Shown: in pieces, positions 50,793 through 52,879 of the stretch
Layout: each line of letters starts with the position of its first letter
Numbering within the stretch: the first letter of the stretch is position 1
Assembly: GCA_009914755.4 (NCBI GenBank)
Contig: CP068257.2
Span: 16,000,001-16,064,000, forward strand
Source: the human T2T-CHM13v2.0 reference genome, Homo sapiens
Length of the DNA: 64,000 bases
Direction of reading: 5' to 3'
The notes under the pieces: model-generated
What the model was told of the DNA's origin: nothing
Databases searched by the model: none
What the model saw: the letters and a program-made list of their open reading frames with translations, nothing else
Program-made: the position numbers and the translations under genes

Positions 50793-51592
50793 CTCTCTGG
50801 TATGTGATAATCCTGTGCACTTCTGTACATTTGCTCATATTTTTTGCTTTGATTTGAATGCTGTTTCCTATCTTCTTCATTTGGGAAGAAAAATCTTGTA
50901 TTTATTTCAAGTTCCAACGACTGATTCATTGAGAGGGTTCCCTTGATCCTACCAGCAGAATTAATTGCTTCTTTTATGCTTTCAAAAAGCTTTGTTCATA
51001 CCATTGGTAAGTATTTATCACACAGATTTATAGTTATAAGGTTAAGACATTCTGAATCACAAACCAGGACACATAATCCTGCAATCAGAATTGCCCCAGA
51101 TAATGTAAGATCCTTGATTACCACAGTTACAGTTGCTTGTGTCTTCCCTGATAAAGTATGAATTCTTACAGGCCAGAGACAGTCCTGTATTCACCAGTGT
51201 AACTCACACAACCTTCAATATGGTACAATGGAAATAGAAGGTGTCTAATAAATGTTGGGCGTCCATGTGAGCATGGTGCTGCCATTTTGAGTGTCAAGAT
51301 ACACTTAGCACCACTCAGAACTGGGAGCACGACTCCTCTTAGAAGGTGAATGGAAAGAATGTTTTGTCTTTCTTTTTATTTGTCATATTTCAGTTAAGAT
51401 CAGGCATAAAGTGTCATGTGTGTCTGTATGAAGACAGTCCACCACACAGGCTTTGTGTGAGCAACAGGGCTGTTTATTTCACCTGATGCAGGCGGGCTGA
51501 GTCCATAAAAGGAGTCAGCAAAGGGTGGTGGGATTATCATTAGTTCTTATAGGTTTGGGATAGGCGGTGGAGTTAGGAGCAATTTGTTGTGG

Positions 51593-52050
51593 GCAGGGGG
51601 TGGATCTCACAAAGTACCTTCTTAAGGGCGGGGAGAATATCACAAAGTACCTTCTTAAGGGCAGGGGAATATCACAAAGTACCTTCTTAAGGGCAGGGGA
51701 ATATCACAAAGTACCTTCTTAAGGGCGGGGGAATATCACAAAGTACCTTCTTAAGGGCGGGGGAATATCACAAAGTACCTTCTTAAGGGCAGGGGAATAT
51801 CACAAAGTACCTTCTTAAGGGCGGGGGAATATCACAAAGTACCTTCTTAAGGGTGGGGAGAATATCACAAAGTACCTTCTTAAGGGCGGGGGAATATCAC
51901 AAAGTACCTTCTTAAGGGTGGGGAGAATATCACAAAGTACCTTCTTAAGGGCGGGGGAATATCACAAAGTACCTTCTTAAGGGCGGGGGAATATCACAAA
52001 GTACCTTCTTAAGGGCGGGGGAATATCAGAAAGTACATTATCACAAGGGC
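51593..52050. repeat. G-rich minisatellite, 32-33-bp unit x ~14 copies
   Basis: The unit 'gggc(g/a)gggg(a)gaatatcacaaagtaccttcttaa' repeats head-to-tail. 'caaagtacc' recurs at ~33-bp spacing 13 times, and the last copy degenerates to 'gaatatcagaaagtacattatcacaagggcaggg'. Confidence 0.9.
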
Positions 52051-52879
52051 AGGGAGGGTGTATTGTCATAGGTCGATTGATCAGTTAGGGTGGGGCAGGA
52101 ACAGGTCACAATGGTGGAATGTCATCTTTTGTGGATCTTCAGTTGCTTCAGGACATTTGGATGTATACGTGCAGGTCACAGGGGATATGATGGCTTAGCT
52201 TGGGCTCAGAGGCTTGACATAAAGCATGCTGGGATGTTAGTAGTACTGGGCCTGGAGGGTGAGGGAGGGAGGAACCCATGACCAGCTAGAATGGGGACAG
52301 GAGTTGGATGTATAAGATATATACAAGATCCCTGTTCTCATAAAACTTACATTCTAGCAGGGGAGATGGGCCAAACCAATTTGAACAAATACAGTATTTC
52401 CAAAATGATAAGTTCTTAATTTAGCAGAGGAAACAGAGAATAAGTAAATACCCAAATGAGATGATTCAAACAGTGATAAGAGCTATGAAGAAAATAAGAG
52501 ATAATGTCTCCAAAGGGGTCTACTTATCAAGGGGTGGGGGTGCAAAGGGGTAGGATTAGATGGGGTGAAGGGCTCTCAGAGATGACTTTTGTTGAGAGCA
52601 GACATAAGGAAGGAACTAGCTATGCAAAGAGTTGGCAAGAGACAGTTCTAGGAAGAGGAAACCTCAAATGGCACAACCTTGAGATATGAATGAGCTGGAG
52701 CATTTGGGGAGCAGAAAGAGACATACTGTGGCAAGAGCCCAGTAAGTGAGGAGCCAAGCTGTGGGGAGTGTGGGTGGAGATAGACACAGGGCAGATTATA
52801 TGGGGCCTTGGAATATTCCTTTTATGCCAAGTGCAGTGGACAGACCTTGGAGTGTTTTTATTTTGTATTTTTATTTTTA

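What the first reader, a model, noticed from the sequence alone, without database searches (positions are those of the whole stretch)
51585..52055. G-rich 32-33-bp minisatellite (~14 copies), candidate VNTR
A highly regular head-to-tail array of 'gggcgggggaatatcacaaagtaccttcttaa', about 450 bp long. Each unit contains a G5-6 run ('gggcggggg', 'gggtggggag'), so about 14 G-tracts lie at fixed 33-bp spacing on one strand. That is a geometry compatible with G-quadruplex formation. Copies differ only at a few positions (gcgggg, gcaggg or gtgggg, with or without an extra 'ga'). This variation suggests recent expansion by unequal exchange, the mechanism behind variable-number tandem repeats. Arrays of this kind are often collapsed or mis-sized in assemblies.
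Basis: seen in the sequence. Interest (0 to 1): 0.5.

Follow-up and report, generated by a model that had tools for sequence, protein, structure and literature searches.

The report
Expanded repeat inside a HERV-H LTR
The 32-bp tandem array is real, but it is an expansion at this one locus (13 copies against the usual 2-4) of the repeat that HERV-H retroviral LTRs of the LTR7B type already carry in their promoter region, so it is an ordinary kind of LTR-internal minisatellite and not a special G-quadruplex element.

Summary
TRF finds one array at 51607-52036, with period 32, 13.3 copies and 96% matches. It has 13 full units of 32 or 33 bp plus degenerate edge units.

The array lies inside an 808-bp solo LTR (51412-52219, minus strand). 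The LTR has TG...CA ends and a 5-bp target-site duplication (TAAAG). Its flanks match the published LTR7b (HERV-H "Type II") consensus end to end at 92-93% identity.

The unit is the family's own U3 repeat. The LTR7b consensus has 3 copies, and 31 other LTR7B/7Y copies recovered from public contigs have 1-4. Only the copy number is unusual.

The units show no non-CpG substitutions in 390 sites, while the flanks are about 8% diverged. The expansion or homogenisation is therefore much younger than the insertion, which fits slippage or unequal exchange.

The G-run is the complement of the LTR's CCCCGCCC/CCCCACCC box, an SP/KLF-type site that matches in 10 of 13 units.

G-quadruplex support is weak. 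There is no motif with loops of 12 nt or less, and G4Hunter stays below threshold inside the array.

Copy-number polymorphism is plausible but could not be tested here. Interest is low to moderate.

The parts
51407..51411 (.). Left copy of the 5-bp target-site duplication, TAAAG
   Evidence: Identical to 52220-52224 and directly abuts the LTR end (sequence).
51412..52219 (-). Solo HERV-H LTR, LTR7B-like (Type II, long-U3 variant), 808 bp. Read on the minus strand it runs 5' TGTCAAGCC ... CATGACA 3'.
   Evidence: The flanks match the published LTR7b consensus: 92.2% over cons 1-189 and 93.2% over cons 270-464, better than any other LTR7 subfamily. It is colinear with the long-form copies L011, L018 and L020. 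There is no second LTR7 copy in the window, and no PBS- or PPT-like sequence next to it.
52220..52224 (.). Right copy of the target-site duplication, TAAAG
51607..52025 (-). 13 full tandem units of 32 or 33 bp. In LTR sense the unit is ATATTC(T)CCCC[G/A]CCCTTAAGAAGGTACTTTGTG. This is an expansion of the LTR7B U3 repeat.
   Evidence: TRF, unit table, 13 core matches against 0 expected. The same core occurs 3 times in the LTR7b consensus and 1-4 times per LTR in 31 other copies.
52026..52066 (-). Degenerate ancestral unit(s) at the upstream edge of the array in LTR sense (…CACCCTCCCTGCCCTTGTGATAATGTACTTTCTGA)
   Evidence: Aligns with the first degenerate units of L011, L018 and L020.
51591..51606 (-). 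Array boundary on the downstream side in LTR sense. GATCCACCCCCTGCCC is the conserved family sequence that follows the last unit.
Evidence: Alignment to the LTR7b consensus and alignment A1.
51832..51961 (-). Exact two-unit (65-bp) duplication: 51832-51896 equals 51897-51961
   Evidence: String identity tested. It is a footprint of a multi-unit duplication step.
51543..51553 (-). TATA-like box CCTATAAGAAC of the LTR promoter
   Evidence: Conserved with the LTR7b consensus; position. Its function is inferred from the family literature, not tested here.
51523..51532 (-). GT box CCCACCACCC just 3' of the TATA box
   Evidence: Position. Sp1-family dependence of HERV-H LTR promoters through a GC/GT box 3' of the TATA box is reported by Sjottem et al. 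1996, as cited in PMC7778262.
51473..51478 (-). Polyadenylation signal AATAAA of the LTR
   Evidence: conserved in all LTR7 consensus sequences.

Best explanation
The array is an expansion, specific to this locus, of the short tandem repeat that HERV-H LTRs of the LTR7B (Type II) kind carry in their U3 region.

Shown:
- A HERV-H provirus inserted here and was reduced to a solo LTR (51412-52219, minus strand, 5-bp TSD).
- The related long-form copies recovered here carry about 4-5 partly degenerate units of 31-34 bp. This copy now has 13 near-identical units, a net gain of about 8-9 units or about 260 bp.

Inferred:
- The gain came from replication slippage and/or unequal sister-chromatid or allelic exchange among the pre-existing units, in several steps of one or two units.
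- It happened long after insertion, or has been kept homogeneous since.
- An array of this kind is likely to vary in copy number between haplotypes.

That is a GC/CACCC box of the SP/KLF type, so the expansion multiplies a candidate activator site from about 3 to about 10-13 upstream of the LTR's TATA box.

The most likely consequence is neutral length variation. If there is an effect, it would be dosage of KLF/SP binding on an LTR class that KLF4 and KLF17 activate at embryonic genome activation. G-quadruplex formation would not be the mechanism.
For: - Array reality.
- LTR identity: published LTR7 subfamily consensus set. The flanks fit LTR7b best, at 92.2% and 93.2% over consensus 1-189 and 270-464, leaving exactly the repeat region in between. 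My from-memory LTR7 sequence also aligned end to end, which was the lead.
- Solo LTR: TG..CA ends and a TAAAG/TAAAG duplication; no second copy in the window.
- Family repeat: the core CCCTTAAGAAGGTNCTTTGT occurs 3 times in the LTR7b consensus, once in 7y and not at all in the other subfamilies. It occurs 1-4 times per LTR in 31 independent LTR7B/7Y copies from public contigs, and 13 times here.
- Colinearity with the long-form copies L011, L018 and L020, where the extra units appear as one insertion.
- Youth or homogenisation: 0 non-CpG substitutions in 390 unit sites against about 32 expected at flank divergence (P about 1e-14). The only variation is at one CpG plus a 1-nt indel. There is an exact 65-bp duplication.
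- Motif: GGG[CT]G[GT]GG is present in 10 of 13 units, and the array holds 10 of the 14 plus-strand matches in 64 kb.
[quoted passage not shown] KLF4 and KLF17 activate HERVH and solo LTR7B/Y. LTR10A/F carry a 28-30-bp VNTR bearing a TF motif that is polymorphic in humans.
Against: - The subfamily call rests on consensus sequences from one paper and on short-read contigs. No RepeatMasker or Dfam run was possible, and this copy is a mosaic: parts of its U3 resemble 7c and the long 7B variants.
- The comparison copies come from short-read metagenome assemblies, which would tend to collapse or break long arrays. Other expanded LTR7B loci could therefore have been missed.
- Homogeneity can reflect continuing concerted evolution and not a recent origin.
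- The SP/KLF assignment is a consensus-string match recalled from known motifs. It is not a PWM score or binding data, and 3 of 13 units (GGGCAGGGG) lose the core.
- Copy-number polymorphism, species of origin, genomic locus and any regulatory activity are all untested.
Confidence: 0.85

Rival explanations
1. This is a G-quadruplex-forming minisatellite. The regularly spaced G-tracts on the plus strand fold into G4 structures, and these give the array its biological effect or its instability.
For: Each unit has GGG-N-GGGG(G). Two adjacent units could form a three-tetrad G4 with loops of 1, 23-25 and 1 nt; a regex with loops up to 30 nt gives 52 overlapping hits in the array. Guedin et al. 2010 show that model oligonucleotides with 1-nt outer loops still fold with a central loop of 21 or 30 nt.
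Against: There is no motif with loops of 7 nt or less, or 12 nt or less, in the array. G4Hunter (25-nt window) averages 0.64, reaches 1.2 only at the left edge (51585-51591) and never reaches 1.5. Elsewhere in the same window 203 positions exceed 1.5. No two-tetrad G4 fits within one unit. The G-run is fully explained as the complement of a conserved LTR promoter box. Three units carry GGGCAGGGG.
Confidence: 0.08
2. The array is a fixed internal component of the repeat family with an invariant copy number. Nothing here is specific to the locus, and it is simply what every such LTR looks like.
For: The unit is indeed part of the LTR7b consensus and of every LTR7B/7Y copy recovered.
Against: The consensus holds 3 units and 31 other copies hold 1-4 per LTR, with LTR lengths of 421-554 bp. 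Here there are 13 units in an 808-bp LTR. Copy number already differs among family members (2, 3 or 4).
Confidence: 0.03
3. The expansion is a selected or functional gain. The array acts as a KLF/SP-responsive multi-site enhancer or promoter module that tunes this LTR's activity, and a neighbouring gene, in early embryo or naive pluripotent cells, with copy number acting as a dial.
For: 10 of 13 units keep the GGG[CT]G[GT]GG core. 8 of the 13 units retain the CpG form of the box. The LTR's TATA box, GT box and poly(A) signal are intact. KLF4 and KLF17 activate solo LTR7B/Y. LTR10 VNTR length correlates with AP1 binding and H3K27ac.
Against: There are no binding, chromatin or expression data for this locus. 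The nearby gene is unknown. The LTR also carries a 21-32-bp deletion in U3 and about 8% divergence. Neutral minisatellite dynamics explain everything seen.
Confidence: 0.12
4. This is an assembly artefact. The copy number in this sequence is mis-sized, either collapsed or over-extended.
For: Arrays of near-identical 32-bp units spanning 430 bp exceed short-read length and are error-prone in assembly.
Against: The units are not all identical. Four variants occur in a definite, non-periodic order, with an exact 65-bp duplication, which is what real sequence read through the array looks like. Both flanks join the array in register with family copies.
Confidence: 0.05

Closest known systems
HERV-H LTR, subfamily LTR7B (formerly 'Type II' RTVL-H LTR) and its U3 tandem repeats
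   Same: The element shares the termini, a 5-bp TSD, and end-to-end colinearity at 92-93% identity outside the array. It has the same repeat unit core (CCCTTAAGAAGGTNCTTTGT) with a CCCC[A/G]CCC box, at the same position upstream of the TATA box. In the published alignment only 7b and 7y have sequence in this segment, which fits the paper's 'block 3' shared insertion.
   Different: There are 13 full units instead of about 3 (2-4 in other copies). Most units are 32-33 bp, not 31 bp, with ATATTC(T)CCCCGCCC in place of ATCTCCCCCACCC. This resembles a longer U3 variant seen in L011, L018 and L020. This copy also lacks 21-32 bp of U3 after LTR position 93.
LTR10A/LTR10F internal VNTR (HERV-I LTR; Ivancevic et al. 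2024, Sci Adv)
   Same: It is a fixed ERV LTR carrying an internal array of roughly 30-bp units, each with a transcription-factor motif. Unit number differs between copies.
   Different: The family is different (HERV-H, not HERV-I) and so is the motif (GC/CACCC box, not AP1). For LTR10, population polymorphism and correlation with TF binding are shown. Here neither could be tested.
SVA VNTR region and classical GC-rich human minisatellites
   Same: It is a head-to-tail array of tens-of-bp units with strand G/C asymmetry, derived from or embedded in a retroelement, and expected to change by unequal exchange or slippage.
   Different: GC content is only 45% and the unit is unrelated. The array sits in an LTR promoter region, not in a composite SINE. 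No hypervariability is demonstrated.
Canonical G-quadruplex motifs (G3+N1-7 x4) and long-loop G4s
   Same: G3/G5 tracts recur on one strand. A 1-23/25-1 loop arrangement across two units resembles the T-var-T long-central-loop oligonucleotides that fold in vitro.
   Different: It fails the canonical and extended (loops of 12 nt or less) motif definitions and the G4Hunter threshold within the array.

Membership tests
HERV-H LTR (LTR7 family), subfamily LTR7B / Type II | Retroviral LTR termini 5'-TG...CA-3' | tested here: met
   Read on the minus strand, the element starts TGTCAAGCC (52219 down to 52211) and ends CATGACA (51418 down to 51412).
HERV-H LTR (LTR7 family), subfamily LTR7B / Type II | Short target-site duplication flanking the insertion (5 bp for HERV-H, from my own knowledge) | tested here: met
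   TAAAG occurs at 51407-51411 and at 52220-52224, directly abutting both ends.
HERV-H LTR (LTR7 family), subfamily LTR7B / Type II | End-to-end sequence similarity to the LTR7b consensus, better than to other LTR7 subfamilies | tested here: met
   The 5' part is 92.2% identical (cons 1-189) and the 3' part 93.2% (cons 270-464), with the top score among 10 published consensus sequences for both parts. Part of U3 is mosaic with 7c-like and long-form sequence.
HERV-H LTR (LTR7 family), subfamily LTR7B / Type II | Presence of the 7b/7y-specific U3 repeat segment | tested here: met
   The unit core is present 3 times in the 7b consensus, once in 7y, and not at all in 7c, 7bc, 7o, 7d1/2, 7u1/2 or 7up. 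It is present 13 times here.
HERV-H LTR (LTR7 family), subfamily LTR7B / Type II | Classification by RepeatMasker/Dfam against curated models | not testable with these tools
   No Dfam or RepeatMasker run is available. Rfam has no such family, and the only Rfam hit in the window is an Alu-like SRP match.
Solo LTR (as opposed to an LTR of a provirus) | No internal HERV-H sequence or partner LTR, with the TSD on both sides of the single LTR | tested here: met
   There is only one LTR7-like hit in 64 kb. The TSD flanks the single LTR, and there is no His-tRNA PBS-like or polypurine sequence next to it.
VNTR / polymorphic minisatellite | Head-to-tail array of units of 7 bp or more with high unit identity | tested here: met
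   Period 32, 13.3 copies, 96% matches.
VNTR / polymorphic minisatellite | Copy number varies between individuals or haplotypes | not testable with these tools
   No human population or long-read data are available. None of the 31 public contigs is this locus. The motif is absent from the held supplements of one VNTR catalogue paper, and a second paper holds none.
LTR-internal TF-motif VNTR (LTR10A/F type) | Each unit carries a transcription-factor motif, and unit number differs among family copies | tested here: met
   The GC/CACCC core is present in 10 of 13 units, by consensus string only. Unit number is 2-4 in other copies against 13 here.
LTR-internal TF-motif VNTR (LTR10A/F type) | TF occupancy and enhancer marks scale with unit number | not testable with these tools
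   No ChIP or ATAC data are accessible.
G-quadruplex-forming sequence | Four G3+ tracts with loops of 1-7 nt (or at most 12 nt) | tested here: not met
   There are 0 hits in the array for loops of 1-7 and 1-12 nt. Hits appear only when loops of up to 30 nt are allowed.
G-quadruplex-forming sequence | G4Hunter score (25-nt window) at or above 1.2-1.5 | tested here: not met
   The mean is 0.64. Only 7 window starts (51585-51591, at the array edge) reach 1.2, the maximum is 1.28, and none reaches 1.5.
G-quadruplex-forming sequence | Physical formation of a K+-dependent quadruplex | not testable with these tools
   This needs CD, melting or G4-seq data. The literature shows only that 1-21-1 and 1-30-1 model sequences can fold.

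The most novel reading that the evidence does not exclude
The array is a copy-number-polymorphic, lineage-specific multiplication of KLF/SP sites in an LTR7B, an LTR class active at embryonic genome activation. Its length would tune this LTR's enhancer or promoter strength, and the expression of a neighbouring gene, in early embryos or naive pluripotent cells. This would extend the 'LTR-internal VNTR as regulatory dial' idea, shown so far for LTR10/AP1, to HERV-H.
Probability: 0.1. Interest if true: 0.55.

Novelty: new member of a known kind. Interest (0 to 1): 0.25.

Why it matters
This mainly serves as a clean annotation. A striking "G-rich minisatellite" turns out to be the U3 repeat of a HERV-H LTR7B solo LTR, expanded about four-fold at one locus.

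LTR-internal tandem repeats are a recognised but under-genotyped source of regulatory length variation. LTR7B/7Y LTRs are KLF-responsive elements active at human embryonic genome activation.

If this array is polymorphic and bound by KLF or SP factors, it would be a natural allelic series of 3 to 13 or more sites for testing motif dosage in an endogenous retroviral promoter. Without such data it is an ordinary, probably neutral, expanded minisatellite.

Tried and rejected
- Bacterial-type promoter and terminator scan of 51300-52400. It found nothing meaningful and is irrelevant for a primate LTR.
- Rfam on the whole window. The only hit is an SRP/Alu match at 16749-16865, and nothing lies at the array.
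- Watson-Crick hairpin or cruciform reading. Four units folded as ssDNA on either strand give z about 0, so this was rejected.
- CRISPR-like reading. Rejected from the sequence, because units abut head to tail with no spacers.
- Coding reading. Rejected because the period alternates between 32 and 33 bp, so no frame is kept, and each unit contains TAA.
- Scan of viral contigs for the unit gave 0 hits. The bacterial and archaeal genome scan gave 1 chance hit (L032) with no LTR similarity.
- Search for the same locus among the 31 human-derived metagenome contigs. None shares the unique flanks.
- Attempt to obtain hg38 coordinates from the Carter et al. supplements, by locus-specific substrings and by element length. 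The files are truncated and nothing relevant was found. The motif-enrichment supplement contains images only.
- VNTR catalogue supplements. The motif is absent from the held files of PMC8096271. No files are held for PMC11701250. Sulovari et al. 2019 is not held.
- Full-text search for the unit sequence. The only matches were one chance qPCR primer and an unrelated Taxus paper that I did not open.
- Sjottem et al. 1996 could not be opened, so it is cited second-hand through PMC7778262.
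Full report
**1. The observation**

The sequence at 51585-52055 is a head-to-tail array. TRF reports 51607-52036, period 32, 13.3 copies, 96% matches and score 791. This is the strongest tandem repeat in the whole window.

Cutting at the unit anchor gives 13 full units:
- 7 units of 32 bp with GGGCGGGGG
- 3 units of 32 bp with GGGCAGGGG
- 2 units of 33 bp with GGGTGGGGAG
- 1 unit of 33 bp with GGGCGGGGAG
- a degenerate 14th unit

A 22-nt core of the unit matches 13 times, against none in 100 shuffles. 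Two small corrections apply: the longest G run is G5, and three units are 33 bp.

**2. What the array sits in**

The flanks looked to me like the reverse complement of a HERV-H LTR. A from-memory LTR7 sequence aligned end to end on the minus strand. That was only a lead.

Independent evidence came from the published LTR7 subfamily consensus alignment of Carter et al. 2022 (eLife, PMC8912925, supplementary file 7). Against those ten consensus sequences, both flanks of the array fit LTR7b best. Identity is 92.2% over consensus 1-189 and 93.2% over consensus 270-464, which leaves exactly the consensus repeat region in between.

The element spans 51412-52219 (808 bp, minus strand). It begins TG and ends CA, and it is bracketed by a perfect 5-bp direct repeat, TAAAG. 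No second LTR7-like sequence exists in the 64 kb, and nothing PBS- or PPT-like adjoins it, so it is a solo LTR.

The LTR's TATA-like box (51543-51553), the GT box just 3' of it (51523-51532) and the AATAAA signal (51473-51478) are all conserved.

The window is primate DNA. It has an Alu-like SRP hit, Alu-derived ORFs and L1 ORF1 remnants.

**3. The unit belongs to the family; the copy number does not**

In LTR sense the unit reads ATATTC(T)CCCC[G/A]CCCTTAAGAAGGTACTTTGTG. Its 20-nt core occurs 3 times in the LTR7b consensus, once in 7y (whose consensus has many Ns there) and never in the other subfamilies. In the published alignment only 7b and 7y have sequence in this segment. [quoted passage not shown]

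LTR7b is the former "Type II" LTR. From my own knowledge, the older RTVL-H literature called these U3 units type II repeats.

A scan of public metagenome contigs for the core returned 31 contigs. All carry LTR7B or LTR7Y copies, that is, primate-derived and presumably human DNA in those assemblies, and none is this locus. Their LTRs carry 1-4 core matches and are 421-554 bp long.

A subgroup (L011, L018, L020, L005, L007) has 33-34-bp units with CCCCGCCC or CCCCTGCCC. It also has the same upstream sequence as the window (…GACAATACACCCTCCC…). In the MAFFT alignment the window LTR is colinear with these long-form copies, and the extra units appear as one long insertion.

The related long-form copies carry about 4-5 partly degenerate units, so this LTR has since gained about 8-9. 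One caveat applies. Short-read contigs would under-represent other expanded copies, although the majority-rule consensus also shows 3.

**4. How it arose**

Outside the array the LTR differs from the 7b consensus at 8.2% of non-CpG sites and 33% of CpG sites. The non-CpG figure is somewhat inflated by the variant U3 segment.

The 13 units have no non-CpG substitution in 390 sites. About 32 would be expected if they were as old as the LTR (P about 1e-14). Even at 5% divergence about 20 would be expected.

All variation sits at one CpG (CG, CA or TG on the plus strand) plus a 1-nt indel. Units 8+9 are repeated exactly as units 10+11, a 65-bp duplication.

The three CpG-site variants match forms already present in different ancestral units of related copies. 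They were therefore probably co-amplified and did not arise afterwards; this is inference.

The pattern indicates stepwise slippage or unequal exchange of one or two units, well after insertion. Without gene conversion that would be less than about 10-15% of the LTR's age. Most 7b copies inserted 10-20 Mya. The alternative is continuing homogenisation.

**5. What the G-run is**

The plus-strand GGGCGGGGG / GGGTGGGG is the complement of the LTR-sense CCCCCGCCC / CCCCACCC. That is a GC or CACCC box of the SP/KLF type; the motif identity is from my own knowledge of those consensus sites, not from a PWM test.

The core GGG[CT]G[GT]GG is kept in 10 of 13 units. The array holds 10 of the 14 plus-strand matches in the 64 kb.

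The family context makes this the more natural reading:
- HERV-H LTR promoters depend on Sp1-family proteins (Sjottem et al. 1996, cited in PMC7778262).
- KLF4 binding is a strong predictor of LTR7 activity.
- KLF4 and KLF17 activate HERVH and hundreds of solo LTR7B/Y in naive hESC and at genome activation.

Whether this particular LTR is active, and whether 13 sites matter, is not shown.

**6. G-quadruplex claim**

No motif with loops of 1-7 or 1-12 nt occurs in the array. G4Hunter (25-nt window) averages 0.64, reaches 1.2 only at seven window starts on the left edge (51585-51591) and never reaches 1.5. Elsewhere in the same window 203 positions exceed 1.5. One unit cannot form even a two-tetrad G4.

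Only a quadruplex using two adjacent units, with loops of 1, 23-25 and 1 nt, is possible. Such long-central-loop designs do fold in vitro (Guedin et al. 2010), so the idea is not excluded, but it is not what the sequence is best explained by. There is no hairpin potential either.

**7. Comparison with known systems**

The closest family is LTR7B itself. Membership is met on termini, TSD, colinearity and the subfamily-specific repeat. Only the Dfam/RepeatMasker call is untestable here.

The closest functional analogue is the 28-30-bp VNTR inside LTR10A/F, which carries AP1 motifs. It varies between copies and between people, and its length correlates with FOSL1 and H3K27ac signal (Ivancevic et al. 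2024). This array shares the architecture, but polymorphism and occupancy are untested.

I found no paper describing an expanded LTR7B repeat. Searches returned nothing on it, and a full-text search for the unit sequence gave only one chance primer match and an unrelated Taxus paper that I did not open.

**8. Verdict**

This is a real array of an ordinary kind: an LTR-internal minisatellite, expanded at this one locus from a repeat that the HERV-H LTR7B family carries anyway.

The VNTR label is plausible but unproven. From general knowledge of minisatellites, I would put the chance that copy number varies among haplotypes at roughly 0.6-0.7. The G4 framing is weak.

Novelty is that of a new member of a known kind. 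Interest is about 0.25. It would rise only if long-read genotypes and KLF or SP occupancy showed a polymorphic, active multi-site enhancer.

Noticed in passing
L001-L031 (metagenome contigs): All 31 'metagenome' contigs that match the unit core are LTR7B/LTR7Y-bearing primate (presumably human) DNA. One is labelled human skin metagenome. This shows host DNA carried in public metagenome assemblies.
   Followed up: partly
L009:1538-2621 and L027:3397-4428: Two full LTR7B copies lie in direct tandem only about 170 bp apart. L009 and L027 are the same locus at 98% identity. This could be an LTR-LTR tandem or a provirus with almost all internal sequence deleted.
   Followed up: partly
window 52126-52127 (LTR position 93/94): This LTR lacks 21 bp relative to the LTR7b consensus, and 32 bp relative to the long-form copies (…GAAGTGAAAATAG…CCTTAACT). 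The missing segment lies between two GATGAC/AAAAGA-like contexts.
   Followed up: partly
window 37643-37848: A 78-bp tandem repeat with 2.7 copies and 95% matches (TRF score 377). It is the second strongest array in the window and its origin was not examined.
   Followed up: no
window 63160-63190: A C-rich tract (tccctccccccccttcccccaaccctcc) gives the highest |G4Hunter| score in the window (2.8), far above anything in the array. From memory, the sequence just downstream looks like LINE-1 ORF2 3' sequence.
   Followed up: no
window 60880-61512 (+) and 42730-43152 (-): These are LINE-1 ORF1 remnants, with Pfam Transposase_22 and Tnp_22 domains at E values of 2e-29 and 6e-23. The ORF at 39165-39506 (-) looks like L1 ORF2 by eye but has no Pfam hit.
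   Followed up: partly
window 16749-16865 (+); ORFs at 16591-17019, 26173-26559, 53662-54220, 58549-58911: There is a Metazoa_SRP Rfam hit just at threshold (70.1 against 70 bits), and several ORFs have typical Alu-translation peptides. These are Alu elements, which mark the window as primate.
   Followed up: no
window 38846-38896, 58546-58589, 50739-50783, 30093-30178: There are simple repeats (TG)25, (TG)22 and (TTAT)11, plus a 45-bp duplication with 1.9 copies. The (TTAT)n lies 630 bp from the LTR.
   Followed up: no
L032:7643-7664 (Lachnospiraceae bacterium KH1P17 contig): There is a single exact 22-nt match to the unit core in a bacterial genome, with no LTR7 similarity around it. This is a chance match.
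   Followed up: yes
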